IMG/VR virus record: IMGVR_UViG_3300021426_000096
Length of the DNA stretch: 64,000 nucleotides
Strand: one strand, 5' to 3'
From: a virus
The position numbers and the translations under genes are program-made. The notes under the pieces are model-generated. The model worked only from the letters and a program-made list of their open reading frames with translations. It was not told the origin of the DNA and made no database searches. Of the stretch, positions 4,776-57,420 are shown piece after piece; the first letter of the stretch is position 1, and each line of letters starts with the position of its first letter.

Positions 4776-4807
4776 TTTGGAATTATCATTTTTTTCTTGT
4801 ATCTTTG
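4776..4807 (+). promoter_or_regulatory. Bacteroidetes-type promoter repeat
   Basis: TTTG 4776-4779, TATCTTTG 4800-4807. Confidence 0.65.
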
Positions 4808-4827
4808 TATCAGAAAGTAATAATGAT

Positions 4828-5157
4828 ATGAAACAGACCAAAAAAGAAATTGAAGCAACACTTAGAAATAAGATTTGCAAACAATACACATCAAGGATTG
4901 ACAGCCTCAATGAAAAGATTAAGACGTTGAGTGAAAATCTTATTGATGAGAGGAAAAAGAGGATTGAAATCCAAAAGAAGTATGAGGAGATTGAGGATAA
5001 AGTCCAAAAGTATGAAGACTGGAACAGAAGACTCCAGGAATTTATGGATATGAATGAAGAGGACAGGGAACTTGCTTTTGCTGAAATGAAAACCAATAAG
5101 AAACTTGGTGAGTTTGCAGATATGTGCAAAAATCTTTTTGGAATTATTATGTTTTAA
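4828..5157 (+). CDS. coiled-coil protein
   Basis: Start MKQTKKEIE after the promoter; K/E-rich heptad-like sequence. Confidence 0.5.
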   Translation: MKQTKKEIEATLRNKICKQYTSRIDSLNEKIKTLSENLIDERKKRIEIQKKYEEIEDKVQKYEDWNRRLQEFMDMNEEDRELAFAEMKTNKKLGEFADMCKNLFGIIMF

Positions 5158-12210: not shown

Positions 12211-12252
12211 CCTGTCAGTGACAATTTGTCATAAAACCTGACAACCTGACAA
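12211..12252 (+). promoter_or_regulatory. operator-like cluster in the sigma-factor leader: palindrome TGACAA-T-TTGTCA plus two direct CCTGACAA
   Basis: TGACAATTTGTCA 12220-12232; CCTGACAA at 12237 and 12245. Confidence 0.5.
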
Positions 12253-12331
12253 TGGTATAATTCTTGATAATTTAGTGAAAGAAATCAAGAACCAGGTAGT
12301 ATATATAAGTGTAACAAACAAAACAAAACAT

Positions 12332-13165
12332 ATGATCAACTACACCAACATCAATGAGAACATCAACATCTACTTCAAGGAGATTCGTAAGTTCTCTTCT
12401 CTCACCAGGAAGGATGAGATGATTCTGTTTACCCAGATTTCCAATGGAGACAAGAGGGCAGAGACAGAAGTGTTCAACAAGATGTCCAAGTTAGCAGTCA
12501 ACATTGCCAAGACATATACCTGTAACCCCGAACTCCTGGAGGATCTCATCCAGGAGGCCAATATGGGTATCCTTACTGCCATCAAGAAGTATGATATGGA
12601 TGCAGGTTACAGGTTCTCCTCTTATTCCCGTTGGTGGATGAAGGCATACATTGGTAAGTTCCTGGAAGAGATGGGTATTGTCCATCATTGTAACCCTGTC
12701 ATCATCAAGAAGGCCAACAAGATTCGGGAGCAGTTCTATATGGAAAACCATAGGGACATCTCCGAGTATGAACTGATGGATAAGCTTGAGGAGATGGGTG
12801 AGATTGTCAATGACATCTCCACCATCCTCAACATCACCAGTGTCAGGATTGATATGCCTGTGTCAGAGGATGATGTCATCACCAAGAAGGATATGGGTGT
12901 GTTCGCTGATCGCACCGCATCTACCAATTCCTTTGTGGAAGAGGAAGAGAATGAGACTCTCTCTTCTGACATTGCCAAGAGACTGGTCAAACTCACCCCC
13001 AGGGAGCAGCAGCTCATCCTGATGAAGTTTGGGTTTGTATCTGGATATGAGATGGATTACAAGTCCATTGCTGAAAAGTGGAATGAGGGTAAGTCTGAAA
13101 AGGAACAGCTCACCCAGGAAAGGGTTCGCCAGTTGGTGATTGGTGCTCTCAAAAAAATGAAGTAA
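12332..13165 (+). CDS. sigma-70 family RNA polymerase sigma factor
   Basis: Region 2: DLIQEANMGILTAIKKYD..GYRFSSYSRWWMKAYI (DLIQEGNIGLMKAV.KFD..GYKFSTYATWWIRQAI); region 4: LTPREQQLILMKFG...TQERVRQL. Confidence 0.85.
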   Translation: MINYTNINENINIYFKEIRKFSSLTRKDEMILFTQISNGDKRAETEVFNKMSKLAVNIAKTYTCNPELLEDLIQEANMGILTAIKKYDMDAGYRFSSYSRWWMKAYIGKFLEEMGIVHHCNPVIIKKANKIREQFYMENHRDISEYELMDKLEEMGEIVNDISTILNITSVRIDMPVSEDDVITKKDMGVFADRTASTNSFVEEEENETLSSDIAKRLVKLTPREQQLILMKFGFVSGYEMDYKSIAEKWNEGKSEKEQLTQERVRQLVIGALKKMK

Positions 13166-15158: not shown

Positions 15159-15773
15159 ATGAAGACCAATTACACTCACATGCTTGAATCTGACAAGATC
15201 CTCCACATCCTTGACCTTATGGGCGCTGTCTCCAAGGAGACTGGTGTCACCACTGAAGAGATGCTTGACAAAGCCATTGAAGAAGGTGCTACCAAGGACA
15301 TCTTCACTGATGGATGGCATGGTCACAAGGAAGGTGATCACCCCTGGTGGCTTCTCCTGGCTGCTATGTCCGGGACTGGTTCTGAGGAAGAGGTGGCCAA
15401 GTACAATGTACCCTATCTTCACAGGGAGAAGGTGTCAAGGAAGAAGAATGGTCGCAAGACCAATGTCTACATCTACTGGTATGATGAATCCTATACCCAT
15501 GAAGTGAACTTCACTGGGAAGAAATACCAGGAGAAGGTCCAGAAGGAAAAGGCCAGGAAGGAACTCCTTGACAGAATCAAGAATCTCCCTGGTTCCAAGG
15601 AGGAAGCTATGGTCCAGAAGGAGAATGATCCTGGTTATGTGAACATCTCTGGAAAGTACATCAAGAAGGAGTGGATGGTTTCACATCCTGATAAGGCCAG
15701 GATGTTGTATGGATGGTGGTTTGTCTCCAACCCTGACCAGTACAAGGATATCTTTGGTGAAGACTGGAAGTAA
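15159..15773 (+). CDS. hypothetical protein, GHPWW family (paralog of 39113..39796)
   Basis: DGWHGHKEGDHPWWLLLAAMSGTGS..VPYLHREKVSRKKNGRKTNVYIYW aligns with DYPRGRQDGHPWWPHTAVMMGVGS..EPYLHRNKMKKGNTRVRMYYW. Confidence 0.6.
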   Translation: MKTNYTHMLESDKILHILDLMGAVSKETGVTTEEMLDKAIEEGATKDIFTDGWHGHKEGDHPWWLLLAAMSGTGSEEEVAKYNVPYLHREKVSRKKNGRKTNVYIYWYDESYTHEVNFTGKKYQEKVQKEKARKELLDRIKNLPGSKEEAMVQKENDPGYVNISGKYIKKEWMVSHPDKARMLYGWWFVSNPDQYKDIFGEDWK

Positions 15774-16146: not shown

Positions 16147-16401
16147 ATGAGCATCAAGAAAGTTACTAACGAAGAACTTCGTAAGATGATGATGGAAGGT
16201 CCGGTCACCTTCCAGTACAAGAAGAATGATGGGACTATCCGCCAGGCTGTGGGTACTCTCAAGTCCAGTCTTATCACCAAGAAACCGGCTGGTGGACAGA
16301 ACAAGGTAAAGGATGCTGGTTACTCCACCTACTTTGACATTGAGAAGGACTGGTGGAGGGCTTATGCAGAGTCCCGCCTTATTGGTGTGGTTGAACCCTA
16401 A
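16147..16401 (+). CDS. hypothetical protein, FQY(K/R)K...YFD(I/V)EK.(D)WRAY family
   Basis: Paralogous to the C-terminal half of 18241..18654. Confidence 0.5.
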   Translation: MSIKKVTNEELRKMMMEGPVTFQYKKNDGTIRQAVGTLKSSLITKKPAGGQNKVKDAGYSTYFDIEKDWWRAYAESRLIGVVEP

Positions 16402-31204: not shown

Positions 31205-31356
31205 TATGAAAGTTTACAACCAATCTGCTTTTATCCCGGACTTCCCTATCTGCATCAGTTCTTCCCACAGTAACATCTCCATGACATTGCAGGATGCCAA
31301 GAATCTGGCAGATCAGTTGAGAGAAGTAATCAATGACATTGAAAAGAAAAAGTAAT

Positions 31357-31563
31357 ATGACACAGAAAGAATTAGATAAATGGTTCAACAGCCTGGACTC
31401 CTTTGAGGTTGCCGAAATCTTCCCCAGTCTCTATGAAGAGGTGATGGAATCTGCTGATCCGGAAAGGAGTGACATCAACCACTTTGTCAAGGAGGCAAAA
31501 TCTGATTGGAAGGGTATGACCAAGGAGGAGAAGGAAAAGTATTACCATCTAGTGGAGGGTTAA
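31357..31563 (+). CDS. hypothetical protein
   Basis: Start at MTQKELDKW. Confidence 0.4.
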   Translation: MTQKELDKWFNSLDSFEVAEIFPSLYEEVMESADPERSDINHFVKEAKSDWKGMTKEEKEKYYHLVEG

Positions 31564-35481: not shown

Positions 35482-35901
35482 ATGAGACACATCAGTACCA
35501 AGACTTCTGCCCGTTCCCCCAGAGCTAACTCCACCTTCAAGACCAGTGAGTCCAGAGAGACTTACAGGATGGTTGAGGAGATTCTTGACATTCTGACCAA
35601 GCAGGGCTTCAATGGGAAGTACCTCTCCACCAAGACCATTGTCAAGAGTGGTACCAGGAGAGGTTATTGCAGACCTTACTATGATGATGAGCGCATTGCT
35701 TGTGCCCACCCCTACTACAAGATCCTGTCAGAGATGACTGACCCTCAGTCTGTCCACTTTGTGAACAATCTGGAAGAGATTGAGACTGACAATGTGCTGC
35801 GCTATCGTCTTCGCACTGATGTGGTGAGGTCTTCCAAGACTGGCAACTGGAAGAGAGTGAGAGGATGTGAGAAGTTTTATGGACTTCCTGACAACAGGTA
35901 G
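35482..35901 (+). CDS. hypothetical basic protein
   Basis: 139-aa ORF; its stop TAG lies inside the first CTGACAACAGG repeat. Confidence 0.5.
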   Translation: MRHISTKTSARSPRANSTFKTSESRETYRMVEEILDILTKQGFNGKYLSTKTIVKSGTRRGYCRPYYDDERIACAHPYYKILSEMTDPQSVHFVNNLEEIETDNVLRYRLRTDVVRSSKTGNWKRVRGCEKFYGLPDNR

Positions 35902-35990
35902 TCTTTGGACAGTCTGACAACAGGTTGTCTATGGGTTGCCTGACAACAGGTTGTCTATGGGTTGCCTGACAACAGGCAACCCACCTCTCC
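35887..35990 (+). repeat. four tandem 26-bp units, each containing the palindrome GACAAC-NN-GTTGTC
   Basis: CTGACAACAGG at 35887, 35913, 35939, 35965; units 2 and 3 identical (CTGACAACAGGTTGTCTATGGGTTGC). Confidence 0.8.
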
Positions 35991-36715: not shown

Positions 36716-36790
36716 GGTCTCATAGTTCAACGGATAGAACAGCAGTTTCCTAAACTGTAGATCTGGGTTCGATTCCCGGTGAGACTACCA
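36716..36790 (+). tRNA. tRNA-Arg (anticodon CCU), CCA encoded
   Basis: Cloverleaf GGTCTCA/TGAGACT acceptor, GTTC-AACGGATA-GAAC D arm, GCAGT-TTCCTAA-ACTGT anticodon arm (CCT), AGAT variable loop, CTGGG-TTCGATT-CCCGG T arm, discriminator A, then CCA. Confidence 0.8.
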
Positions 36791-39796: not shown

Positions 39797-39814
39797 ACCA
39801 AACACCTCCTTACC

Positions 39815-39852
39815 AAGAGACTCTCCCAACCAAGGAGGGTCTCTTCCATTTT
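39815..39852 (+). terminator. stem-loop terminator candidate
   Basis: AAGAGACTCTCCCaaccaaGGAGGGTCTCTT. Confidence 0.4.
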
Positions 39853-40407
39853 AACATGGTTGTCAGCCCGGTGGAGATTCTCCAGCAGCTGGACCTTGGT
39901 CCAGGACCTGATGACCATGGGTCACCAGCATGGGTCACTCCTATCCAACCACTCTCCATCTCCTCTCATCTCATTGCGACCTGCGCCAATCGCATCCAAA
40001 AATTTTTCCATCAGGATGTTTCATCTCCATCAGAGTTCTCATCAGGATAATTATCTCCTCATCTGATTCCACTCTTCACTCTTTTCTATACTATAGTCTT
40101 CTACTTCCAGGAATTCTTCCAGGAAAAGATCTACTTCTGTTAAATTTCCACCCCTGTATATTCATTTTCACCAAAAAACACCCAATTTCATCTTTTTCCC
40201 CAGTACAGATATTCCTGGAAATACTGTATTTCCCCATTTTTAACCAATATGACAAAATGTCAGAAAATCACCTTTTTTGACATTTTTCACAAGATCTGTC
40301 AAAATCACACTTTTCCACTTTTCCCCATTTTTCCAAAAAACCAAAAAATCACCTTTTTTCACTGCGATGGCGATTTTTGCAAAATACCCAATTTTCCCAT
40401 TTTCCCC

Positions 40408-40600
40408 AAAATGCCCATTTTTGGGATATCCTGGATTTTGGCTATTTTGGGGATATCCTGGAAAATGGGGTTTTCCAGAAAATGGCCATTTTTGGGGTTT
40501 TGGAGGATCTTCCAAAAATGGCCAATTTTGGGGTTTTTGGGAAAATGGTCAAAAATGGGGTTTTCTGGGGATACCCCCAAAATGGTGATTTTTGGACGAT
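40408..40600. repeat. degenerate 27-35 bp tandem units carrying CC(A/T)6GG boxes in both orientations
   Basis: CCATTTTTGG (40412, 40482), CCAAAAATGG (40512), CCAATTTTGG (40522), CCAAAATGG (40577); GGGATATCCTGG twice. Confidence 0.7.
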
Positions 40601-40905
40601 CACGATGTGCGACTTCCCCCACACGCACTATATGGAGGGGAGTATCTTACAAACTCCTGGGGAGTCTTTCTATATTTTTTTAATATATATATTTTGATAA
40701 TCCATTTTGTGTAATTTGTAAGTCATTGATTTTCAGTCTATTTCATATAAGTTATTGGTACACAAAGTGGAAGAAAATGGAAGAAAGTGGTAAATATAGT
40801 AAGTGGATGTCAGAAATTAAGGTAGATCACCCAAATTATATGCAAAATACAGACATTGTATGACCACTTTTGTTATATTTGTATATAGAGATATAATAGT
40901 AATAT

Positions 40906-41145
40906 ATGAAGAAGATCAAGATTGGTACATCCTCATTGCATGGGGACATATTGGAAGATTATGATAAGGCAAGAGCTTGTAATTTCTGTACTCACTTTTG
41001 TGGGTATGGGTTGCATGCTTGTTGTGGTCATTGTGATTATAAGGGTGAAGATATAGAGGGAGGATACATTGGTAATTATAGGAAGGTAGGAAAGGATTGT
41101 GAAGGGTTTGATTGTAGGAAAGAATTTCTTGTAGTGGAGGAGTAA
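40906..41145 (+). CDS. Cys-rich small protein
   Basis: CNFCTHFCGYGLHACCGHCDY; start of a lower-GC module with AGG/GGG/ATA-rich codon usage. Confidence 0.45.
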   Translation: MKKIKIGTSSLHGDILEDYDKARACNFCTHFCGYGLHACCGHCDYKGEDIEGGYIGNYRKVGKDCEGFDCRKEFLVVEE

Positions 41146-41324
41146 TATATGTTTAAGAACTGCAAGAACAAGTATGATGCCTGTGACAGGGCGATCACAT
41201 TCATATATGGTAAGGATTATTTGGACAGTCTTGGTGAGGATGAGTATCTTCGTCTTGTAAGGATTGCCAAGTTCTTGTTTGAATCTGGTATGAGATGGCA
41301 GAGAGATAATGGAAAGGAGGAAAT

Positions 41325-41519
41325 ATGATGAGAGATTATGTATTCCCTATTGGGATAGATAAGAATGGTAAGAAGTTCCAATGGGTTGAAGATTGGGATG
41401 TAATTGATTGTAGTGAGTGTTGTTTTTGGGAAGGGAGATGTATGTACAAGGAGCTTAACAACAACAAGAAGGGAGAATGTATAGGAACCGGATATTTCAG
41501 GAGGGTAGTGAGTATATAA
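41325..41519 (+). CDS. Cys-rich small protein
   Basis: DCSECCFWEGRC...GECIG. Confidence 0.4.
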   Translation: MMRDYVFPIGIDKNGKKFQWVEDWDVIDCSECCFWEGRCMYKELNNNKKGECIGTGYFRRVVSI

Positions 41520-41715
41520 GATAATAGTAATATATGGAAAAGGCATTAGAGTATCTTAACAGTCATATGATTGTGAAACATAGGAGGGAGACTGAATCTT
41601 CATCCATTGCTGACAGGTATAATTATGTTGAGTGGGATGAGTATTATGTAAGTAAGGAGGATGCTATCAAGGCGATTGAGATTGCATTGAGTGATATAAA
41701 ATAATAATTGGGTAT

Positions 41716-42228
41716 ATGTGTTTGTTTAGAAAGAAGGAAAAGAACAATCTTCCTATTGGGAAACTGGCTTTTTTTGATGGTAATAATGATTATGAGTTTG
41801 TTGATCTTGGGTTGAGTGTGAAATGGGCCAATAAGAATATTGGTTCAGAATATGAGGACAAGATTGGTACTTATTTCAATTATGATGAAGCGGAAGACAG
41901 GTATTATGATCTGCCCACTGTTGATGAGGTGAGGGAGTTGTTTGAGAAATGTAAGATCAAGTATGACAAGAAGAGGAATGGGTTCATTGTTGTTGGGGTG
42001 AATGGGAATAGGATATTCATTCCTGTGAGTGGAGAGAGGGATGGTAATGCCAGGTATGAAGGAGGATACTTCTGGACTAATAGTGATCATGAGGAAGGAT
42101 ATATGGAGGGGTATAAGTATTATGGTTGTGTCTATTTGAAGAGTAAGGTTCTGAAGAAGGTCAAGACAGAAGTGAATCTGTTGAAAAAGGATGGGTTCTG
42201 GATCAATGTGAGGGAAGTGGAAAGATAA
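41716..42228 (+). CDS. FISUMP / DUF1566-like (Fibrobacter succinogenes major paralogous) domain protein
   Basis: FVDLGLSVKWANKNIG...LPTVDEVRELFE...NGFIVVGVNGNRIFIPVSG.RDGNARYEGGYFWTNSD.EEGY...GCVYL follows the domain layout seen at the C-terminus of the 2153-aa protein (GWRLPTKDEWDYI...). Confidence 0.5.
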   Translation: MCLFRKKEKNNLPIGKLAFFDGNNDYEFVDLGLSVKWANKNIGSEYEDKIGTYFNYDEAEDRYYDLPTVDEVRELFEKCKIKYDKKRNGFIVVGVNGNRIFIPVSGERDGNARYEGGYFWTNSDHEEGYMEGYKYYGCVYLKSKVLKKVKTEVNLLKKDGFWINVREVER

Positions 42229-42246
42229 TAAAAAAATTAAATAATT

Positions 42247-42483
42247 ATGGAAATAGTTTCAACAACACCTCCAAGGAAAACCAAGGAAAAGAAGTATATG
42301 TTTGTGTGTAAAACTTGCCAAAAGGAAGAAAACGGATTTAATTACAGTAAGACCAAGTTCATTGCCGATTATCCAAAAGATTTCTTTACTGGTATCACAC
42401 TGGAATATTGTAAATGTCCTCTATGTGGAGCATTACATTCAAAATCTATTATAGCAAGACTCCGCTACCTGTTATATAAATAA
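42247..42483 (+). CDS. zinc-ribbon small protein
   Basis: CKTCQ...CKCPLCG. Confidence 0.45.
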   Translation: MEIVSTTPPRKTKEKKYMFVCKTCQKEENGFNYSKTKFIADYPKDFFTGITLEYCKCPLCGALHSKSIIARLRYLLYK

Positions 42484-42495
42484 GGAGGTTTAAAG

Positions 42496-42981
42496 ATGAA
42501 GAAGTTATTATTTATTTTCTGTTTATTGTTTTGTCTGTCTTGTAAGTGCCAGGTGGTGTCATCATCCATTGGTGATATTACCGACATTATGCTGTTGGAT
42601 CCTGTATGTGATGATGAGGAATTGGTTGGAGATCATTATATATGGGGTTATGTTGTCATTGACAGTACTGCATGTAATAAAGATATGAGTAATGGGATAA
42701 GCAGTATCATCAACAATCCTGATTATATATACTCATTGGATGAAGACACTGTATGTTATTGTGAGTTTTTGCCTGACATCTGTATAAGGTGTGAGAATGC
42801 GGATATTTTTATTGAGTTCAGTACATACAGTATATTATACAAGTTCTGTGATGGGAGTGAGGCTGATGATTATTATTTGAATATTGAGGGATACAGTAGA
42901 TTATTGGATTATTGTATTGAACTGTTTCCTGGAGATGATATATTGAAGGAGTACAAGAAAAAGTTGGAAAATATAAAATAA
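42496..42981 (+). CDS. putative lipoprotein
   Basis: MKKLLFIFCLLFCLSCKC signal plus lipobox. Confidence 0.5.
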   Translation: MKKLLFIFCLLFCLSCKCQVVSSSIGDITDIMLLDPVCDDEELVGDHYIWGYVVIDSTACNKDMSNGISSIINNPDYIYSLDEDTVCYCEFLPDICIRCENADIFIEFSTYSILYKFCDGSEADDYYLNIEGYSRLLDYCIELFPGDDILKEYKKKLENIK

Positions 42982-43373
42982 ATCATTATATTTGTAATAG
43001 GTATAATTGACAGATGTCTTGTTTGATCGTTGCTAAATACCGGGATGAAGTTGCCTGGGGTCGAGACTAACAGTAGAGGTGTTCACTGCTTTGGGGATGA
43101 TAACCAACTACCCTGTTACACAAGAGCTGAGACAAGGCGCTCTTATAGACAAAAGGATGTACGCAAAAGCAGATATGATACATCTGTCATTTTTTTAATA
43201 AGTTATAAATATGATTTGGATTTTGATAATTTTTATGTTGTATTCTCTGATTGGTGCATTGGTTTGTAACAAGATTAATGCATTATATGGGAGTGATGAT
43301 ATTGTTGAATTGATTGTTGATAGTATACTGATAGTCTTCTGGCCTATCACTGTAATGTGTCATTTTTTATTGG

Positions 43374-43856
43374 ATGATTAATATGATTAGTGAAAAGGAA
43401 AAGAGAAGATTGTTATTGATGGATCTTGGCATGCGCTTGGGTTATGGTGTAATGATATTGGATATACCTGCCAAGCGTGATGGCAAGATATTCATTTTAA
43501 GTACATTGGATGATTATCAGTATGACACTGATGAGGATTCTCATTATCAGAGTGTTTATAACATCCTGCCTTATCTCAGACCTATGGAGAGTATGACTAA
43601 AGAGGAGGCATCCGAGATGTTCAGACTGATGTATACTGACAGGAATCTAATCAGTGTGGATATTGAAAAGGATGGCATGAGGTTTGGTTATACCAAAGAT
43701 GGTGTATTCTGTCATGTGTTTCTTTTATTCAATGAGATTTACTCATTGAAGCAGTTGGATTGGTATAACAAGAAGATGTTTGATTACAGGGGTTTGATCC
43801 CTATGGGGATTGCCCTGGAAGCAAAAGAAGGAATGTATAATATAAAGGAGAAATAA
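43374..43856 (+). CDS. hypothetical protein
   Basis: 160-aa ORF. Confidence 0.5.
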   Translation: MINMISEKEKRRLLLMDLGMRLGYGVMILDIPAKRDGKIFILSTLDDYQYDTDEDSHYQSVYNILPYLRPMESMTKEEASEMFRLMYTDRNLISVDIEKDGMRFGYTKDGVFCHVFLLFNEIYSLKQLDWYNKKMFDYRGLIPMGIALEAKEGMYNIKEK

Positions 43857-43858
43857 TT

Positions 43859-44059
43859 ATGACACAAGAAGTACAGATACAAGTATTGGAGGATGTCATT
43901 AAGGTGCTTACCAATTCAGACACAATTGATGAAGCCCTTGATAAATCCTTACAAATCATAAGAGAAGAAAAAGAAAAGGTATATCAAGAGGAAATTCCAT
44001 ACTCTGCTTATGAAAGATTAGAGGTATATGTTGAAAATCTTAAAAAAGACTTAAAATGA
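43859..44059 (+). CDS. hypothetical protein
   Basis: 66-aa ORF. Confidence 0.4.
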   Translation: MTQEVQIQVLEDVIKVLTNSDTIDEALDKSLQIIREEKEKVYQEEIPYSAYERLEVYVENLKKDLK

Positions 44060-44538
44060 TCGCAGAAGATTTCGTTAGTTTAGAGACTGCCAAACTCCTG
44101 AGAGAGAAGGGGTTTAAGAAGTGGTGTTATAAATGTTATGGTACTGCTGTATATCATAAAGGAGTACCCATCAGTTTTGATGAGGAATGTGAACTGAAAG
44201 ATGAAGGACATGGAGATGAAATTGAATATGTTGAAGGTGGGCATCTTTATGATTTCGGGTGTAATAACAGTGAAAAGGAAACAAATTTATGGGCTGCACC
44301 AACACTATGGGTGGCAATGAAGTGGATAATGGAGAAAGGGTTTTACATCTTTGTCCCCCTGGAAATTGATTATGATGAGGATGAGAGAGGAACTAAGTGG
44401 TATCATAATGCTACATATTATCCTGAAATAAGAAGGGTCTCTGACGGAAAGATAATGTATGATGATGGCAGACTTTATGCAAAACCAGAACAAGCATATG
44501 AAGTGGCGATAAGGTATTGTCTTGAAAATCTGATTTAG
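44056..44538 (+). CDS. hypothetical protein
   Basis: 160-aa ORF; ATGA overlap. Confidence 0.5.
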   Translation: MIAEDFVSLETAKLLREKGFKKWCYKCYGTAVYHKGVPISFDEECELKDEGHGDEIEYVEGGHLYDFGCNNSEKETNLWAAPTLWVAMKWIMEKGFYIFVPLEIDYDEDERGTKWYHNATYYPEIRRVSDGKIMYDDGRLYAKPEQAYEVAIRYCLENLI

Positions 44539-44650
44539 TTATGAGTGAGGAAGAAAAACAGCTGCTGCTTAAAGACCTTTGTGGAAGATATCCATATGTG
44601 GCTTACCCTATAAGCAAAGGAAGGAATGTATAACAAATAAGTACTAAAAT

Positions 44651-45157
44651 ATGAAAAAAGAAATAGAAATACCGGAAGGTTATGAGGCCAGAATTGAAGG
44701 GAACAAGGTTGTAATTGAACCAAAGGAAAGTGAGGATGAGAGGATAAGGAAGATGCTCATTGAGCAAATGAAGAGATGGAAAAAATGTGCAGAGGATAAT
44801 AATGTTGAACAAGATGTCAAAGATGCTACTGATGCTATAGCCTACCTTGAAAAACATAAAGAACAGAATCTGGTAGAGTGGAGTGAGGAAGATGAGAAAA
44901 AATTAAAGACTGTCATATCTTTAATGAAGTCAAGCCGTGCGGTGGATCCGTTTTATGATAAGATGTACCTTGAAGGTTGGCTCAAATTACTTCCAGAAAG
45001 GTTTAATTCACAGTATCATTGGAAACCTAGTGAGTATCAGATGAAAGCTCTGAAAGATGTGATTGACAGAGTACTTTTGACTTGCAGACAACAGGTCCCA
45101 TTAGAATCACTCTACAATGACTTAAATAAACTATTTGAGAATGAAAATACAATATAA
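44651..45157 (+). CDS. hypothetical protein
   Basis: 168-aa ORF. Confidence 0.5.
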   Translation: MKKEIEIPEGYEARIEGNKVVIEPKESEDERIRKMLIEQMKRWKKCAEDNNVEQDVKDATDAIAYLEKHKEQNLVEWSEEDEKKLKTVISLMKSSRAVDPFYDKMYLEGWLKLLPERFNSQYHWKPSEYQMKALKDVIDRVLLTCRQQVPLESLYNDLNKLFENENTI

Positions 45158-45772: not shown

Positions 45773-48700
45773 TTAGTTGTCAGCAAGTCGGACTGTCCAA
45801 TTAACAGGAATACCATTCTCATTAGTTGTCCAACCAGACATACCCGATTTCTTTACAAATGTACCAACAGAAGCAACTCCAGACACCCAACTAGTAGTAC
45901 AGGCGCCTGCAGATACACTTGTTGCAAGACATTTGATGTAATTAAGACTTCTACAATTTTGGAACATATATCTATAACAATATGTTACTAAAGTAGAAGC
46001 AAGGAGATCAGGCGCTGTAGTCAATGTAGTACAACCTTTAAACATACTATAATAACATGCATTAACCAATGTAGTTGCCGGAAGTGCAGGTGCCGTAGTC
46101 AATGCAGTACAACCTTCAAACATGCTACAATAACAGTATTGTTTGAGTGATTTTGCTGGGAGTTCTGGCGCTGTAGTCAATGCAGTACAGCCAGAGAACA
46201 TATAATAATAGCAAAAATCTGTCATAGAGGTTGCTGGAAGAGTTGGTGCTGTAGTCAATGCAGTACAGCCAGAGAACATATATGCATAACAATATTTAGC
46301 TAATGTAGTTACAGAGAGAGTTGGTGCAGTGGTTAAACTAGTACAATTTTGGAACATACAATAATAAGCCTGATATCCAACACTACTTGGCATTATTAAA
46401 TTCTTCGCAGATACCACAGGAGTTCCCTTAAACAAATAAGGTTGAGATTCATTGGTACTGCGATATATTGAAGATAAATTACCACCTACTTCAAAACTGG
46501 CAGTTGTTCCTTGGAATGAACTATATAAATCTACATTGTTATCATATATACCCGCTCCAAACTTGAACTGCACAATGTCTCCAGCAACAACACTGATGGT
46601 GGTTCCATTGTCAGAAGAAACAATATTTGTCCAGGTTCCACCATTTTTAGAATATTTCAATGTTTTTATGCCACCAGAATTATATGGATCTTCTGAAGTA
46701 TTTATACAGTAATACTTCCAAGAGATATTACCATCACTTGTTATCTCAAATGTGAGAGGTTCATTAGAATAATCAACTTCAGCAGTCCATCCAGTTGGGA
46801 TACCACTTGTACCAGTAGTCCATGAGGAACTCAAAACTTTTACAAATGTACCCGTTGCTGCAACTCCATCTACCCAATCTGTTAATCCTGAACTGTAGCT
46901 GAGGTCCGTAGCTGAACACTTAATATAATTCAAATTACTGCATCCCTTGAACATATAAGAATAACAATTACTTGCTAATACAGCAGCAGGAAGTACTGGA
47001 GCTGTTGTTAATCCGGTACAACCATAGAACATGTTACAATAACAGTATTGTTTGAGTGATTTTGCTGGGAGTTCTGGCGCTGTTGTTAATCCGGTGCATC
47101 CGTAGAACATACTTCTATAGCATGCCATAAATAAATTAGTAGCTGGGAGTTCTGGAGCTGTTGTTAACGATGTACAACCTTTAAACATACAATCATAACA
47201 GTATTGATTAAGTGTAGTAGCAGGAAGTTTTGGTGCTTTAGTTAAATTAGTACAACCTTCAAACATATTTTCATAACAACCCCATTTTAGTGATGTTGAT
47301 GGAAGAATAAGATGCTCCGCTGATATTAATCCATCACAATCAACAAACAAACATGCATATTCCAAATTTGATGCATCGGCGGACATAAAATCATCCCCAG
47401 CAGTTAACGACATTATGTTTCCATAAACATCTACTTGGATAGATGACGATTTTATGTAAAAATAATTATAATATGATGTGTTACCACCAACATAATTACC
47501 TTTAACTCTTACTTTATCACCGGTAAGAACATCAATAGAGCCAGCAGCATATTTATTTGGGGTTATTTTCTGCCATTCGCCATTATTTACAGAACAATAT
47601 ATTGGATAAGCAGTTGCACCATTATCATTAATTTTCCATGTGATTCTTCCACCGGATTTAACATCAAATGTAAGATACTGCTGTGTATACTCATATTCAG
47701 TTTCACTATAAACATTCCAGCCTGAAGGAATACCACTTGCCCCAGTTGTCCACGAATCTATATTGTCTGCTTTAACAAATGTGCCTGTTTCTGCTACTCC
47801 ATATACCCATTTACCTGTGCAACTATCAGCAGATATATCTATTGCAAGACATTTGATATAATTAAGGTTAGTACAACCATTGAACATATAATAATAACAA
47901 TATTTTGTCAATGTAGTAGCAGGGAGTTCAGGTGCTGTTGTTAGACTTGTACAATTAGAGAACATATATCCATAACAATAACCTACCAATGTAGTAGCCG
48001 GAAGCTCAGGTGCTGTGGTTAGACTTGTACAATTAGAGAACATATAAAAATAACAACATGTTGCTAATGTAGTAGCAGGAAGAACTGGTGCTGTAGTTAG
48101 ACTAGTACAACCATAGAACATATATTCATAACAATATTTTGTCAATGTAGTAGCAGGAAGAACTGGTGCTGTAGTTAGACTAGTACAACCATAGAACATA
48201 TATTCATAACAATAGTCTGCCAATGTAGTAGCTGAAAGCTCAGGTGCTGTTGTTAGACTTGTACAACCAAAGAACATACTGGAATAACAATAGTCTGCCA
48301 ATGTAGTAGCAGGGAGTTCAGGTGCTGTGGTTAGACTAGTACAGCCATCAAACATAGACCGATAACAATAATCAACTAATGTAGTAGCAGGGAGTTCAGG
48401 TGCTGTGGTTAGACTTGTACAACCAAAGAACATACCGGAATAACAATAACTCACCAATGTAGTAGCAGGGAGTTCAGGTGCTGTGGTTAGACTAGTACAA
48501 CCATTGAACATACCCAAATAACACCCAGTTGCTAATATAGTAGCAGGGAGCGTAGGTGCTGTTGTTAGACTAGTACAACCATTGAACATATACCGATAAC
48601 AATAGTCTGCCAATGTAGTAGCAGGGAGAATAAGGTTTTCTGCTGATAATAATCCAGTACAATTATAGAATAAATATGCAAACGTATAAGATGATGATAA

Positions 48701-50926
48701 TGCAATTAAATTAGAGAAATTATCACCACCAATCAAAGACATTATATTACCATCTGTATCAAATGTGGCTGTTCCGCCAAATGAATTAGTATATCCATAT
48801 GAGTCACGTGTTGAATAAGCTGAGTTATTACCCTTGAATCTCACTTTATCTCCTGTGACAACAGGTATAGATACACCTTCTGTTGTAGATGTTATATCCG
48901 TCCATTCACCATCATTCTTTGAATAAGATATGGTTTTTGCAGTGGCTGAACTGGAATTCATCTTCCAAGTGATATTACCACTTGATTTAATGTTAAATGT
49001 AAGATAATTTAAAGGTATATTAAAGATATCATTAGTACTATTACTAACAACTTTGATTTCATCACCAGGATCAAAACCCCTTGCTGTAAATGTTGCAATA
49101 TTATTTGTCACATTCACAGTCTCAATCTCTGTATTATTGACATAAAGTGTCAATGAATCACCATCATTGGTGTAACACTTGATAACCCTATTTTCATATT
49201 TCTCATAATCCTTTCCACAGATATGTACAAACTTATCTGTCTGGTTCCACCAAGCCTTATAAAGATAGAATGTATCTTTCTTTGTCCTGTGGTCTCTCTC
49301 AATAAGACCCTTGTTATTGAGTCTTCTCAACTCATCATCAGTATATGAGTTCTCACCATCAAGACATACTGTATAACCCTCATTTCTGTTGGACACAGCA
49401 ATATCAAAGAACTGCCATTCACTTGTAAACAACAATTGAGGGAAGTTCTTGATCGCTGCGATATGTCCTTCGTGAAGCCACATCTGGTATTCAATGTCAT
49501 GTCTCTCATGGTTACCCCTTGTTGTGGTAGACATATAGTTTTCAGAGTGGCAGTGTTGTGTACCACCACAACCATATTCAGAATAAGCAATAGGTCTGTC
49601 AGGCACATTGTTAAGACGGGTATTAAGTTGTGATGTTGGGTTATTTGAAGATGTGTTTGAATACCAACCAACATAGATATTACAACCATACCAATCCATA
49701 TCAGCACCACCAACAGTTGACCTTGGATTACTACTACTAGCATTAAGCACACAACCAACCATACGTTCAGTATCATATTCCTTGATGATGTCCCTGAAGT
49801 GTTCAAGTTTAGTACAGGCAAATGCTCCACCATCACTATCCATCTGTGCATTGAACTCATTACCAAGTCCCCAGAACATAATACAAGGGTGGTTATAATG
49901 CTGTGTAACCATATCATAATACTGATCTTCAAGATGGGTATAATAATCTTCCGGTTGTGTTGATTTGATATTATTCACCAATGGGACTTCTGTCTGTACA
50001 ATGATACCCAATCTGTCACACCAATCATATACCTCCTTTGGGTGTGGATAGTGTGCAAGACGGATGAAGTTACAACCAACCTCATTAATCATTGCAAACT
50101 CCTGTGTGTAATCAGCATCATCAAGAGCATTGGCCTTTTCTTCAAGGTCATCATGCATACATACACCCCTCAATAAGTATGGAGAACCATTGAGAAGGAA
50201 TCCTGTGTATGTTTCATTATTAGGAAGAGTATAATTATATACATATGAATAATACCTTATACCATATCCTCTCTGGAATCTATGATAAAGGTCACCATTC
50301 TTATAGATTTCAAGAGTAACATCATAAAGATGAGGATTAATCTTACCATTCCAAAGGGTAGGATTGGTGATAGTAGTAATGAATGACATCTCCTCACCAG
50401 TACTTGGTTTCTCATCATAGTAGTGATAGTTACTGTCATCATCATCAATCTTACATACAACTGTTGCTCCAACAGGAACACTGGTCTTGATAGTAAGTGT
50501 TGCTGCTGCTGAAGACACATTAGTTGCTGTTATATGGAAACCATCATATCCATAAAACATATCAGGCATCACTGGACTGGTTATGACCTTCACCTTACCC
50601 AATGTGGCATTGAAGTTAAAGTCTGCTGAACAAGGGGCAAGGGTGCTCCTGGTTGTATTACACAATATAACCTTTATCTCATTTTCACCTGCATGTACAT
50701 ATTCACTGATATCTGTGAAGAATGCATTATATCCTCCCCAGTGGGTTGTTACCTTTACATTATCAACATAGATATCTGCTGATTGGTCAGCATGCTGAAA
50801 CCACAAATAGGTTGGCTGAACCTTTGGCAGATTGATTGTTGTTGTAAATGTGTAATTACCCTTTGAATAAGATGATGAATGTCCATCAATTCTATTAACT
50901 GAATAAGGTACTGTTATATTACTCAT
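45773..50926 (-). CDS. giant modular protein: N-terminal GH2 glycoside hydrolase + beta-sandwich units + BspA-type LRR arrays (candidate tail fibre / depolymerase)
   Basis: First ATG at 50926 (the track start at 50971 is TTG and overlaps the upstream stop). GH2 acid/base HYNHPCIMFWGLGNE and nucleophile PIAYSEYGCGG; then repeated MF.GCTSLTTAPELPATTL..YCY 26-aa units and NYIKC...GIP.GW caps. Confidence 0.8.
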   Translation of the reverse strand: MSNITVPYSVNRIDGHSSSYSKGNYTFTTTINLPKVQPTYLWFQHADQSADIYVDNVKVTTHWGGYNAFFTDISEYVHAGENEIKVILCNTTRSTLAPCSADFNFNATLGKVKVITSPVMPDMFYGYDGFHITATNVSSAAATLTIKTSVPVGATVVCKIDDDDSNYHYYDEKPSTGEEMSFITTITNPTLWNGKINPHLYDVTLEIYKNGDLYHRFQRGYGIRYYSYVYNYTLPNNETYTGFLLNGSPYLLRGVCMHDDLEEKANALDDADYTQEFAMINEVGCNFIRLAHYPHPKEVYDWCDRLGIIVQTEVPLVNNIKSTQPEDYYTHLEDQYYDMVTQHYNHPCIMFWGLGNEFNAQMDSDGGAFACTKLEHFRDIIKEYDTERMVGCVLNASSSNPRSTVGGADMDWYGCNIYVGWYSNTSSNNPTSQLNTRLNNVPDRPIAYSEYGCGGTQHCHSENYMSTTTRGNHERHDIEYQMWLHEGHIAAIKNFPQLLFTSEWQFFDIAVSNRNEGYTVCLDGENSYTDDELRRLNNKGLIERDHRTKKDTFYLYKAWWNQTDKFVHICGKDYEKYENRVIKCYTNDGDSLTLYVNNTEIETVNVTNNIATFTARGFDPGDEIKVVSNSTNDIFNIPLNYLTFNIKSSGNITWKMNSSSATAKTISYSKNDGEWTDITSTTEGVSIPVVTGDKVRFKGNNSAYSTRDSYGYTNSFGGTATFDTDGNIMSLIGGDNFSNLIALSSSYTFAYLFYNCTGLLSAENLILPATTLADYCYRYMFNGCTSLTTAPTLPATILATGCYLGMFNGCTSLTTAPELPATTLVSYCYSGMFFGCTSLTTAPELPATTLVDYCYRSMFDGCTSLTTAPELPATTLADYCYSSMFFGCTSLTTAPELSATTLADYCYEYMFYGCTSLTTAPVLPATTLTKYCYEYMFYGCTSLTTAPVLPATTLATCCYFYMFSNCTSLTTAPELPATTLVGYCYGYMFSNCTSLTTAPELPATTLTKYCYYYMFNGCTNLNYIKCLAIDISADSCTGKWVYGVAETGTFVKADNIDSWTTGASGIPSGWNVYSETEYEYTQQYLTFDVKSGGRITWKINDNGATAYPIYCSVNNGEWQKITPNKYAAGSIDVLTGDKVRVKGNYVGGNTSYYNYFYIKSSSIQVDVYGNIMSLTAGDDFMSADASNLEYACLFVDCDGLISAEHLILPSTSLKWGCYENMFEGCTNLTKAPKLPATTLNQYCYDCMFKGCTSLTTAPELPATNLFMACYRSMFYGCTGLTTAPELPAKSLKQYCYCNMFYGCTGLTTAPVLPAAVLASNCYSYMFKGCSNLNYIKCSATDLSYSSGLTDWVDGVAATGTFVKVLSSSWTTGTSGIPTGWTAEVDYSNEPLTFEITSDGNISWKYYCINTSEDPYNSGGIKTLKYSKNGGTWTNIVSSDNGTTISVVAGDIVQFKFGAGIYDNNVDLYSSFQGTTASFEVGGNLSSIYRSTNESQPYLFKGTPVVSAKNLIMPSSVGYQAYYCMFQNCTSLTTAPTLSVTTLAKYCYAYMFSGCTALTTAPTLPATSMTDFCYYYMFSGCTALTTAPELPAKSLKQYCYCSMFEGCTALTTAPALPATTLVNACYYSMFKGCTTLTTAPDLLASTLVTYCYRYMFQNCRSLNYIKCLATSVSAGACTTSWVSGVASVGTFVKKSGMSGWTTNENGIPVNWTVRLADN

Positions 50927-50958
50927 ATATATTAATTTTTTTCCTTTATTATATTTAT

Positions 50959-57420
<6,462 letters not shown>

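What the first reader, a model, noticed from the sequence alone, without database searches (positions are those of the whole stretch)
40408..40600. Array of CC(A/T)6GG boxes in alternating orientation
At least six copies of CCATTTTTGG, CCAAAAATGG, CCAATTTTGG or CCAAAATGG fall within 190 bp, embedded in 27-35-bp degenerate tandem units (AAAATGGCCATTTTTGGGGTTTTGG...). GGGATATCCTGG also occurs twice. The units are too degenerate and lack unique spacers to be a CRISPR array. The motif is a bendable A/T tract flanked by CC/GG and is a likely binding array for an initiator or an architectural protein.
Basis: seen in the sequence. Interest (0 to 1): 0.5.

Follow-up and report, generated by a model that had tools for sequence, protein, structure and literature searches.

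The report
Phage non-coding nine-base phased array
About 440 bases between two gene blocks of an uncultured ~100-kb rumen/gut phage consist of roughly 48 nine-base units (a short A/T run plus a CCA/TGG core); the stretch does not encode a protein and keeps its exact nine-base rhythm in twelve diverged relatives while its letters change, so it is most likely a landing strip for many copies of a DNA-binding protein that controls the neighbouring genes, although no such protein has been identified.

Summary
The boxes exist, with five exact copies rather than six or more. They are a symptom of a larger feature. From about 40157 to 40600 the DNA alternates A/T runs with C or G blocks at a period of exactly 9.0 bp. 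Spectral power is 17.9 here and at most 2.1 elsewhere in the window. The feature lies in a 1.1-kb non-coding hub between + strand genes.

I recovered twelve sequence variants of the same locus from independent metagenomes. All keep the 9-bp rhythm and the array length (292-315 bp between anchors; length mod 9 is 7, 8 or 0 in 11 of 12). The central 240 bp, which contains the finding, falls to 62-72% identity, and C-type units swap with G-type units.

The 144-aa ORF that gene callers place here is spurious. Frames shift between relatives and variable sites show no codon-position bias.

The unit consensus is AWWWTGGSS. The same AAARTGG word forms conserved 10-bp-spaced direct repeats 150 bp downstream.

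My best reading (0.35) is a cooperative protein-coating DNA array that gates a promoter-like element, resembling the omega/ParG/AbrB arrays. The main rival (0.25) is an abundant non-coding RNA. No binding protein, Rep or ParA was found. The function is unproven.

The parts
39815..39845 (+). Stem-loop AAGAGACTCTCC-CAACCAA-GGAGGGTCTCTT directly after the 227-aa gene. It looks like a terminator and marks the left edge of the non-coding hub.
   Evidence: Read from the sequence. It is conserved in relatives, and in L006 it follows the 174-aa gene, where the 227-aa gene is absent.
39850..40156 (.). C-rich, G-poor spacer carrying short 2-3-copy repeats: CATGGGTCAC x2, CATCAG x3, CTTCCAGGAA x2.
   Evidence: C 11-22 against G 2-15 per 50 bp. 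Identity to relatives is 54-98%. No consistent ORF.
40157..40600 (.). The whole 9.0-bp phased array: about 48 units of an A/T run (mostly AnTm, with TpA avoided) plus a C or G block. The orientation-normalised unit is AWWWTGGSS.
   Evidence: Periodicity. Junction grammar. Unit consensus.
40247..40305 (+). Invariant block ATATGACAAAATGTCAGAAAAWCACCWTTTTTGACA-N17-TGTCAAAAT. It contains TGACA/TGTCA half-sites and a promoter-like TTGACA / 17 bp / TG-n-CAAAAT that points into the array. It is embedded in phase within the array.
   Evidence: Promoter scan. Identity to relatives is 92-100%, and only the middle of the spacer varies. Phase is shown.
40306..40362 (.). Sequence-conserved left units of the array, all C-type: CACACTTTT CCACTTTTC CCCATTTTT CCAAAAAAC CAAAAAATC ACCTTTTTT.
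   Evidence: Identity is 77-100%.
40363..40600 (.). Fast-evolving part of the array, containing the finding (40408-40600). It holds the CC(W)6GG boxes, AAAATGG x6, GGGGTTTT x4, and GGATATCC/GGATCT 'punctuation' units every 27-63 bp.
   Evidence: It is the most diverged block (62-72% identity between clades, against 91-96% in the flanks for L008), yet the phase is kept.
40611..40681 (+). Conserved GC-rich block GACTTCCCCCACACGCAC. It includes an outer stem (40611-40617 pairing with 40660-40666), an inner hairpin and a T-rich tail (T7 at 40675-40681). It looks like a terminator or a structured 3' end.
   Evidence: The outer stem is kept in 10 sequences; of the 7 changed cells, 5 are G.U-compatible one-sided changes.
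40670..40760 (.). A/T-rich stretch, 76% A+T.
40764..40806 (+). Direct repeats of AAARTGG at 40764, 40774 and 40784 (10-bp spacing), plus AAGTGG at 40801, followed by TGTCAGAAA.
   Evidence: The cores are conserved in every relative that reaches this far, while the spacers between them vary.
40870..40905 (+). Promoter-like elements just before the 79-aa gene (ATG at 40906): TTGTTA-16-TATAAT, and the only TAnnTTTG motif in the hub (40874-40881).

Best explanation
The boxes are part of a ~440-bp non-coding DNA array of about 48 contiguous nine-base units. Each unit is an A/T run plus a CCA/TGG core, in either orientation.

I propose that the array is coated cooperatively by many copies of one small DNA-binding protein, with one dimer per unit or per pair of units. 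Because 9 bp is shorter than the helical repeat, successive proteins would spiral around essentially straight DNA. This is how the ribbon-helix-helix proteins omega and ParG behave on their 7- and 8-bp arrays, and how AbrB behaves on TGGNA motifs spaced 9-10 bp apart.

The array encloses a conserved promoter-like element and ends at a conserved stem-loop with a T-run. It sits upstream of conserved AAARTGG direct repeats and of the promoter of a block of small orphan genes. The coat would therefore most likely gate, silence or insulate transcription at this module boundary.

Shown: non-coding status; strict phase and length conservation despite sequence turnover; the unit core; the architecture of the hub.

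Inferred: that a protein binds, which protein it is, and the regulatory outcome.
For: - Period is exactly 9.0 bp and is unique to this locus.
- The period is kept in 12 variants (power at the 9.0-bp period, P9, 8.7-14.7; null maximum 1.1). Length between anchors is 292-315 bp, and length mod 9 is 7, 8 or 0 in 11 of 12, while central identity falls to 62-72%.
- There are 20-32 TGG+CCA cores per array of about 34 units. The consensus unit is AWWWTGGSS.
- The boundary between a C/G block and an A/T run prefers CA/TG steps, and A/T runs are mostly AnTm with TpA rare.
- The ratio of C-type to G-type units varies between relatives (TGG:CCA is 18:13 in the window and 6:19 in L008). Folding energy is in excess on both strands (z -1.7 to -6.0), which indicates palindromic duplex sites.
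- The periodicity runs in phase through the promoter-like block, that is, upstream of any transcript start from it.
- AAARTGG: 18 of 43 window hits lie in the 1.1-kb hub (about 0.6 expected). These include conserved direct repeats at 10-bp spacing.
- The literature describes the same grammar. pSM19035 parS has contiguous 7-bp units in mixed orientation overlapping promoters, on straight DNA wrapped by a left-handed protein spiral (PMC9499535). The TP228 parH site has degenerate boxes with AT spacers, a tolerant geometry and no intrinsic bend (PMC3130281). AbrB sites have TGGNA pairs with 4-5-bp AT spacers in all four orientations, and long sites are covered by multiple motifs (PMC3738160).
Against: - No candidate binding protein was found. 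There is no RHH, AbrB, HTH, ParA or Rep family in about 110 window ORFs or in the neighbours.
- The gene next to the hub is not constant across relatives.
- At about 48 units, the array is several times longer than any known array of this kind.
- The + strand is C-rich in 8 of 12 variants, which is a strand bias that a purely duplex function does not need.
- The flanking promoter-like and terminator-like elements, and the G.U-tolerant stem, also fit a transcribed RNA.
- A 31-bp upstream insertion in three relatives breaks the phase with the upstream part.
Confidence: 0.35

Rival explanations
1. The array acts as RNA. A promoter at 40277-40305 drives a ~370-nt non-coding transcript that runs through the array and ends at the stem-loop and T-run (40611-40681). 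Its many short hairpins or C-rich repeats would sponge or decoy an RNA-binding protein or a nuclease, or act in cis on termination upstream of the orphan-gene block.
For: - The -35-like and extended -10-like hexamers are invariant while the spacer between them varies.
- The 3' stem is conserved, its one-sided changes are mostly G.U-compatible on the + strand, and a T-run follows.
- The + strand is C-rich and G-poor in most variants.
- Folding energy exceeds that of shuffles.
- There is a precedent. In the crAss-like phage phi14:2, two long early intergenic regions give RNAs more abundant than most mRNAs, of unknown function (bioRxiv 10.1101/2020.03.07.982082).
Against: - The 9-bp phase continues upstream of the putative start site.
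- The proportions of C-type and G-type units differ widely between relatives.
- The folding excess is equal on the - strand.
- There is no Rfam family match.
- The promoter-like motif is not of the Bacteroidota type, although gene starts suggest a Bacteroidota-like host.
- The same AAARTGG word recurs beyond the terminator-like element as phased direct repeats.
Confidence: 0.25
2. The hub is the phage replication origin. The AAARTGG direct repeats and the 9-bp array bind an initiator, and the adjacent A/T-rich stretch unwinds.
For: - Three to four conserved direct repeats at helical (10-bp) spacing lie next to a stretch with 76% A+T.
- The same word is reiterated in the array.
- A promoter-like element could activate the origin by transcription.
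- It is a large conserved non-coding hub in which many short repeats cluster.
Against: - No initiator, helicase, primase or polymerase gene lies within at least 30 kb on either side in the window or in the 10 kb beyond it.
- Classical iterons are 17-22 bp and helically phased, not contiguous 9-mers.
- GC skew here follows gene orientation and composition, and the local C-to-G switch is lineage-specific.
- The DnaA-box scan was uninformative.
Confidence: 0.12
3. The array has no function of its own. It is a slippage-prone low-complexity spacer that propagates by gain and loss of 9-bp units.
For: - It is the fastest-evolving block of the hub.
- It is built of homopolymer runs.
- No partner protein has been found.
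Against: - Phase and total length are held over deep divergence, although single-base and 8-bp indels do occur.
- Lengths cluster at 0 to -2 mod 9 in 11 of 12 variants.
- A CCA/TGG core is retained per unit.
- The locus is found in every relative recovered, from many samples.
Confidence: 0.1
4. The array is a partition centromere of a plasmid-like prophage. It would be bound by an RHH or ParR-type centromere-binding protein and segregated by a ParA or actin-like ATPase.
For: The array grammar (contiguous short units, mixed orientation, overlap with a promoter) matches pSM19035 parS and TP228 parH (PMC9499535, PMC3130281).
Against: - No ParA, ParM, TubZ or RHH gene is present in the 64-kb window or in the 10 kb upstream.
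- There is no match in the plasmid collection or in bacterial genomes.
- Nothing indicates a temperate or plasmid lifestyle.
Confidence: 0.05
5. The region encodes a small repeat protein, namely the 144-aa ORF 40249-40683 that gene callers predict.
For: An ORF from the conserved ATG stays open through the array in 7 of 9 variants. In the other two it is interrupted once, near the end of the array.
Against: - The distance between the conserved anchors takes all three residues mod 3, so the most conserved 3' block is read in different frames.
- Variable sites fall 12/16/15 on codon positions 1/2/3.
- Window and L006 are 97% identical in DNA but 52% identical as protein, because of an 8-nt indel.
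- Stop codons are rare in all + frames by composition.
- No Pfam domain is recorded for any member.
Confidence: 0.03

Closest known systems
parS of plasmid pSM19035, bound by the RHH protein omega (ParB-pSM)
   Same: Contiguous short non-palindromic units without gaps, in mixed orientation. The arrays overlap promoter regions. Function depends on contiguity, and the DNA stays straight while the protein spirals around it (PMC9499535).
   Different: The pSM19035 units are 7 bp with a clear consensus (WATCACW), and there are only 7-10 per site. The omega and delta genes lie beside the sites. Here the unit is 9 bp with a loose consensus (AWWWTGGSS), there are about 48 units, and no RHH or ParA gene was found.
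parH centromere and OF operator of plasmid TP228, bound by the RHH protein ParG
   Same: Degenerate short boxes separated by A/T-rich spacers. There is no intrinsic bend despite the A/T runs. The geometry tolerates rearrangement, and the protein coats the site cooperatively (PMC3130281).
   Different: The period is 8 bp (ACTC boxes plus 4-bp spacers) over about 100 bp, next to parF and parG. None of these genes is present here.
AbrB binding regions of Bacillus subtilis
   Same: TGG-containing pentamers separated by 4-5 bp of A/T, giving a 9-10-bp period, in direct, reverse, inverted and everted arrangement. Long sites are covered by multiple motifs (PMC3738160).
   Different: The strict TGGNA motif is not matched: there are 0 bipartite TGGNA pairs in the window's array, because TGG is followed by G or C here. 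Gene starts lack Shine-Dalgarno sequences, which suggests a Bacteroidota-like host rather than a Firmicute. No AbrB-domain protein is present in the window.
Iteron-type replication origins of phages and plasmids (established knowledge, from memory)
   Same: Clustered repeats of one word next to an A/T-rich stretch in a conserved non-coding region. The AAARTGG repeats at 40764-40806 have helical spacing.
   Different: Iterons are usually 17-22 bp, few in number, helically phased and adjacent to the rep gene. The array here is contiguous 9-mers, and no rep gene is near it.
Long early intergenic regions of the crAss-like phage phi14:2 that give abundant non-coding RNAs
   Same: A long non-coding region among small early-type genes of a ~100-kb phage of a probably Bacteroidota host, with unknown function (bioRxiv 10.1101/2020.03.07.982082).
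   Different: No sequence relation was tested or known. The window is not shown to be crAss-like: only the SPFH protein resembles crAss001 gp91 (46% identity), there is no synteny, and the giant ORF is not the virion RNA polymerase.
CArG box, CC(A/T)6GG, of eukaryotic MADS-box factors
   Different: This is a coincidence of notation. No MADS (SRF-TF) domain appeared in any Pfam scan of the window's ORFs, and the boxes here are junctions of two 9-bp units.

Membership tests
RHH centromere/operator arrays (omega-parS, ParG-parH) | Contiguous short repeat units (7-8 bp) without gaps | tested here: met
   About 48 contiguous units at 9.0 bp. The period is 9 bp rather than 7-8.
RHH centromere/operator arrays (omega-parS, ParG-parH) | Units occur in direct and inverted orientation and the arrangement is flexible | tested here: met
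   CCA-type and TGG-type units are mixed, and their proportions differ between relatives.
RHH centromere/operator arrays (omega-parS, ParG-parH) | Defined recognition core (WATCACW or ACTC) | tested here: not met
   The unit consensus is AWWWTGGSS. AATCAC occurs only 3-4 times, and those copies are dispersed (read).
RHH centromere/operator arrays (omega-parS, ParG-parH) | Cognate RHH gene and partition ATPase gene adjacent | tested here: not met
   No RHH, ParA, ParM or TubZ family in the window ORFs or in the 10 kb upstream. About 21 kb of the contig was not seen.
RHH centromere/operator arrays (omega-parS, ParG-parH) | Protein binding and cooperative coating | not testable with these tools
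   This needs EMSA or footprinting.
AbrB-type binding region | Bipartite TGGNA/TNCCA motifs with a 4-5-bp A/T spacer | tested here: not met
   There are 0 bipartite matches in the window's array and 0-2 in relatives. TGG/CCA cores at 9-bp spacing are present, but the fifth base is not A.
AbrB-type binding region | AbrB/SpoVT-domain protein in the phage or host | tested here: inconclusive
   None was found in the window. The host is unknown, and the absence of Shine-Dalgarno sequences argues against a Firmicute.
Iteron-type replication origin | Direct repeats of one word with helical phasing next to an A/T-rich unwinding region | tested here: inconclusive
   This is met by the AAARTGG repeats at 40764/40774/40784 plus the 76% A+T stretch. 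It is not met by the 9-bp array itself.
Iteron-type replication origin | Initiator or replication genes adjacent | tested here: not met
   No replication family was found in the window. There is only a weak sub-threshold PriC-like hit at 4777-5154.
CRISPR array | Near-identical 24-48-bp repeats separated by unique spacers | tested here: not met
   The units are 9 bp, degenerate and contiguous. The higher-order 18/27/36-bp repeats are 82% identical at best.
Type III toxin-antitoxin RNA antitoxin (ToxI-like) | Promoter, tandem ~36-nt repeats and terminator, followed directly by a ToxN/AbiQ-type toxin gene | tested here: not met
   Promoter-like and terminator-like flanks exist. However, the repeats are degenerate, the next gene is 220 bp away, and neither it nor its neighbours match any family.
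Protein-coding gene (the 144-aa ORF 40249-40683) | Conserved reading frame and codon-position bias of substitutions | tested here: not met
Known RNA families (Rfam 15), tRNA/tmRNA | Match at or above the gathering score | tested here: not met
   Only sub-threshold hits to miRNA-like hairpins appeared.

The most novel reading that the evidence does not exclude
The element is a 'phase-coded' DNA. Selection acts on the 9-bp rhythm, the unit count and a minimal CCA/TGG core rather than on sequence. It builds a long (about 150 nm) nucleoprotein filament or decoy of a kind not yet described in phages. Examples would be a scaffold that titrates a host nucleoid or defence protein, or one that physically organises the boundary of a hypervariable early-gene cassette.
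Probability: 0.15. Interest if true: 0.7.

Novelty: new variant of a known kind. Interest (0 to 1): 0.45.

Why it matters
If the array is a protein-coating site, it would be the longest and most regular example of the contiguous short-unit grammar so far known from plasmid centromeres and global repressors. It lies in an uncultured ~100-kb rumen/gut phage lineage that is otherwise almost entirely unannotated. It also marks the conserved control hub in front of a variable block of orphan genes, which is the place to look for early or anti-host functions.

There is a practical consequence too. Public protein databases hold a small 'family' of 113-178-aa hypothetical proteins (P0001-P0010) that are translations of this non-coding array.

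Tried and rejected
- CRISPR: rejected on anatomy.
- tRNA/tmRNA and Rfam: nothing found.
- Protein-coding: rejected.
- Telomere or hairpin-end palindrome, and a G-rich R-loop origin: the C-left/G-right symmetry is specific to the window's lineage.
- Macroscopic curvature: 9-bp phasing should cancel A-tract bends. This is inference and was not computed.
- Strict AbrB TGGNA motif: absent.
- DnaA boxes: the 2-mismatch scan was uninformative.
- GATATC and GATC methylation sites: not enriched.
- TCCWGGA enrichment: a codon effect.
- ToxI-like antitoxin: no toxin gene.
- Homology searches: no DNA match in INPHARED phages or PLSDB plasmids. The anchors are absent from IMG/VR apart from chance coding hits and from GTDB genomes.
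- Generic S/W pattern scans of public collections: not possible, because the tool needs 14 fixed bases and fixed-C patterns do not even match the known variants.
- L001, an unrelated contig sharing AAAATGGCCATTTTTGGGG: it shows no 9-bp periodicity.
- L014, where the array is joined to an ArsR-like gene resembling a Ruminococcus MAG: probably a chimera or recombinant, and it does not establish a host or an att site.
- crAss-like affiliation: suggested by one protein and not confirmed.
- HMG-box-like ORF 31333-31560: only a 30-residue partial match.

Full report
OBSERVATION.
- CCW6GG occurs six times in the 64-kb window, about the chance number (6.1). Four of the six lie within 117 bp: CCATTTTTGG at 40415 and 40486, CCAAAAATGG at 40512 and CCAATTTTGG at 40522.
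- The 9-mer CCAAAATGG is at 40577. That gives five exact boxes, not 'at least six'.
- GGGATATCCTGG occurs exactly twice, 27 bp apart.
- Tandem Repeats Finder reports degenerate periods of 18, 27 and 36 bp, all multiples of nine.

WHAT THE SIGNAL REALLY IS.
- Coding A/T against G/C gives a spectral peak at exactly 9.0 bp. Power is 17.9 for the 440 bp starting at 40151. No window away from this region exceeds 2.1. None of about 250 kb of unrelated loci fetched later exceeds 1.5.
- About 48 A/T runs follow one another from 40157 to 40593 at a mean spacing of 9.0 bp.
- Each unit is an A/T run of 4-6 bases followed by 3-5 C or G. The runs are mostly A-then-T (149 of 271 across the first nine variants), and TpA is rare.
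- The boundary between a C/G block and an A/T run prefers the steps CA/TG (262) and GA/TC (162) over AC/GT (79) and CT/AG (39).
- Nearly every unit carries a CCA or TGG, 20-32 per array of about 34 units. After orientation normalisation the unit reads AWWWTGGSS.
GGCC is the opposite junction.
- In this genome the left half is C-type and the right half is G-type. This explains the impression of alternating orientation and the many inverted repeats.

SETTING.
- The array lies in a 1.1-kb gap (39797-40905) between + strand genes: a 227-aa protein ending at 39796 and a 79-aa protein starting at 40906.
- The window is part of a 96-kb contig from ENA sample ERZ12302851. The same 1.1 kb is 100% identical in three other samples, so it is not an assembly artefact.
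- The genome looks like a large phage. It has a sigma-70-family gene, a Thg1-like gene, a Dam-type methyltransferase, an SPFH protein, RNA ligases and one tRNA. Most ORFs are orphans.
- Gene starts lack Shine-Dalgarno motifs (11% against a 16% background). The SPFH protein is 46% identical to gp91 of Bacteroides phage crAss001. Both points suggest a Bacteroidota-like host. However, there is no synteny with crAss001, and the 2153-aa ORF is an LRR protein rather than the crAss virion polymerase.
- The genes to the right of the hub (40906-45157) are about 16 small orphans with a very strong GC skew of +0.3 to +0.58.

RELATIVES.
- Gene callers translate the array as a 144-aa ORF, so I used that pseudo-protein as a probe. 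I also scanned metagenomes for an invariant flanking 18-mer.
- Together these gave twelve distinct variants of the locus, in syntenic context.
- The hub contains blocks that are nearly invariant:
  (a) ATATGACAAAATGTCAGAAAAWCACCWTTTTTGACA-N17-TGTCAAAAT (40247-40305);
  (b) the next six to seven units (40306-40362);
  (c) GACTTCCCCCACACGCAC with a stem-loop and a T-run (40611-40681);
  (d) AAARTGG repeats at 40764, 40774 and 40784, plus AAGTGG at 40801.
- The stretch between (b) and (c) contains the finding and is the fastest-evolving part. Against L008 it is 64% identical, where the flanking blocks are 91-96% and the neighbouring proteins 88-89%.
- All twelve variants nevertheless keep the 9.0-bp peak (power 8.7-14.7; null maximum 1.1 for windows of similar size). 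They keep the phase, and they keep the distance between anchors: 314, 306, 315, 314, 305, 304, 306, 315, 292, 304, 305 and 295 bp. Length mod 9 is 7, 8 or 0 in 11 of 12.
- The variants share descent, so these are not twelve independent trials. Still, single-base and 8-bp indels are seen between close relatives, so the rhythm is not preserved merely because no indels occur.
- The split into a C-type left arm and a G-type right arm is peculiar to the window's clade. Most relatives are C-rich throughout (C 75-89 against G 38-54).

NOT CODING.
- The ORF from the conserved ATG stays open in 7 of 9 variants. However, stop trinucleotides are scarce in all + frames by composition.
- The anchor distance takes all three residues mod 3, so the most conserved 3' block is read in different frames.
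- Variable sites in the best-conserved 123 nt fall 12/16/15 on codon positions 1/2/3.
- Window and L006 are 97% identical as DNA but 52% identical as 'protein', because of an 8-nt indel.
- No RNA family matches.

HOW IT MOST LIKELY WORKS.
- The conserved properties are the phase, the number of units, contiguity, a minimal CCA/TGG core flanked by an A/T run, and tolerance of either orientation. This is the grammar of arrays that small dimeric proteins coat cooperatively.
- Three described systems use it:
  - The parS sites of pSM19035 have 7-10 contiguous 7-bp units in mixed orientation overlapping promoters, on straight DNA with a left-handed protein spiral (PMC9499535).
  - The parH site of TP228 has degenerate boxes with AT spacers, no intrinsic bend and a rearrangeable geometry (PMC3130281).
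  - AbrB regions have TGGNA pairs with 4-5-bp AT spacers in all four orientations, and long sites are covered by many motifs (PMC3738160).
- A 9-bp period is out of register with the 10.5-bp helix, so A-tract bends would cancel every seven units. I therefore expect a straight filament rather than a bent or wrapped one. This is inference.
- Three observations place the feature at the DNA level:
  - The rhythm runs in phase through block (a), upstream of any start site from its promoter-like hexamers.
  - The AAARTGG word is enriched about 30-fold in the hub (18 of 43 window hits).
  - The same word recurs beyond block (c) as conserved 10-bp-spaced repeats.
- Block (a) looks like a promoter (TTGACA, 17 bp, TG-n-CAAAAT) whose hexamers are invariant and whose spacer varies. 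Block (c) looks like a terminator.
- I therefore read the array as a coated zone that gates or insulates transcription at the boundary of the orphan-gene block. Confidence is 0.35. Binding, the identity of the protein and the outcome are all inferred.

RIVALS.
- Non-coding RNA (0.25). The promoter-like and terminator-like flanks, the C-rich + strand, the G.U-compatible one-sided changes in the 3' stem (5 of 7 changed cells) and the phi14:2 precedent of abundant early intergenic RNAs all fit a ~370-nt non-coding RNA. Against this reading, the phase extends upstream of the start, the proportions of C-type and G-type units differ widely between relatives, and the folding excess is the same on both strands (z -1.7 to -6.0).
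- Replication origin (0.12). It fits the AAARTGG repeats and the stretch with 76% A+T. There is no replication gene nearby, and contiguous 9-mers are not classical iterons.
- Neutral slippage (0.10). It does not explain the retention of phase and length.
- Partition centromere (0.05). It lacks any ParA or centromere-binding gene, and nothing indicates a plasmid lifestyle.
- Protein coding (0.03). It is rejected by the tests above.

COMPARISON AND NOVELTY.
- The array works like an RHH or AbrB-type coating site, but it fails their membership tests. It has no WATCACW or ACTC core, no bipartite TGGNA motif (0 matches) and no cognate gene.
- At about 48 units it is several times longer than the described examples (7-10 units, or about 100 bp).
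- I file it as a new variant of a known kind, the multi-copy short-unit protein-binding array, with its function unproven.

LIMITS.
- All relatives belong to one phage lineage.
- About 21 kb of the contig was not seen.
- The tools could not run collection-wide scans for generic 9-bp periodicity.
- No expression or binding data exist.

Noticed in passing
window 35887-35976; also 12219-12253: A 26-bp tandem repeat (3.5 copies, 89% match) has the palindromic core TGACAAC-AG-GTTGTCA. A CCTGACAA doublet and the palindrome TGACAATTTGTCA lie just upstream of the sigma-70-family gene (12275-13165). CTGACAAC occurs 9 times against 3.1 expected. This may be a shared operator word, and the hub's block (a) also uses TGACA/TGTCA half-sites.
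   Followed up: partly
window 40906-45157: This block holds about 16 small orphan genes at 34-37% GC, with an extreme GC skew (+0.3 to +0.58) caused by a C-depleted coding strand. Its gene content varies between relatives; L043 has only one gene before the convergent giant gene.
   Followed up: partly
window 40249-40683 and proteins P0001-P0010: Public gene calls translate the non-coding array into 'hypothetical proteins' of 113-178 aa. This spurious ORF family was useful as a probe for finding homologous arrays.
   Followed up: yes
window 45773-50971 and 50959-57420 (- strand): Two giant ORFs (1732 and 2153 aa) carry 78-bp (26-aa) tandem repeats. They have LRR_5/BspA-like and glycoside hydrolase 2 hits. 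The best PDB match is the LRR protein 4fs7, not the crAss-type virion RNA polymerase.
   Followed up: partly
L014 1-412 joined to the array at about window 40180: In one metagenome contig the array is joined to an ArsR-family gene that is 83% identical to one in a Ruminococcus MAG (RUG11231). The junction falls at the palindrome GCAGATCTGC. It is a chimera, a recombinant or an integration junction, and this is unresolved.
   Followed up: partly
window-wide: TCCWGGA occurs 47 times against 14.4 expected. Of the 38 genic sites, 29 sit in one codon frame ([F/L/I]-[L/Q]-[E/D]), so this is a codon-usage effect and not a regulatory word. Six copies lie in the hub.
   Followed up: yes
window-wide gene starts; 8502-9686: Shine-Dalgarno sequences are not used (9 of 79 ATG starts, against a 16% background), and the upstream regions are A/T-rich. 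The SPFH protein is 46% identical to gp91 of Bacteroides phage crAss001, without synteny. The host is probably Bacteroidota and the family is unassigned.
   Followed up: partly
window 31333-31560 (+): A 76-aa ORF gives a weak partial HMG-box-like match (Pfam E about 3e-4). A home-made HMG profile aligns only 30 residues around WKGMTKEEKEKYY. This is not convincing as an architectural protein.
   Followed up: partly
L001 1376-1445 (IMG/VR UViG 3300031994_002774): An unrelated viral contig carries AAAAATGGGTCATTTTTGGGGT and AAAAATGGCCATTTTTGGGGT in an intergenic region upstream of a 953-aa protein that has RdRP-like (PF05183) and HTH/sigma-region-4 hits. There is no 9-bp periodicity there.
   Followed up: partly
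window 39815-39845: A strong stem-loop (12-bp stem) lies directly after the 227-aa gene. In L006 the same hairpin follows the 174-aa gene and the 227-aa gene is missing, so the gene appears to have been gained or lost as a cassette bounded by this hairpin. The 227-aa protein has a 41%-identical paralogue at 15186-15506.
   Followed up: partly
window 36716-36790; 16147-16398; 4777-5154: There is a tRNA-Arg(CCT). Two WYL_2 (Sm-like) small proteins are present (one at 16147-16398, E = 1e-18). A coiled-coil ORF gives a sub-threshold PriC-like hit, and one of the 69 small ORFs scanned as a set (the output does not say which) gives a faint ocr-like (DNA mimic) hit.
   Followed up: no
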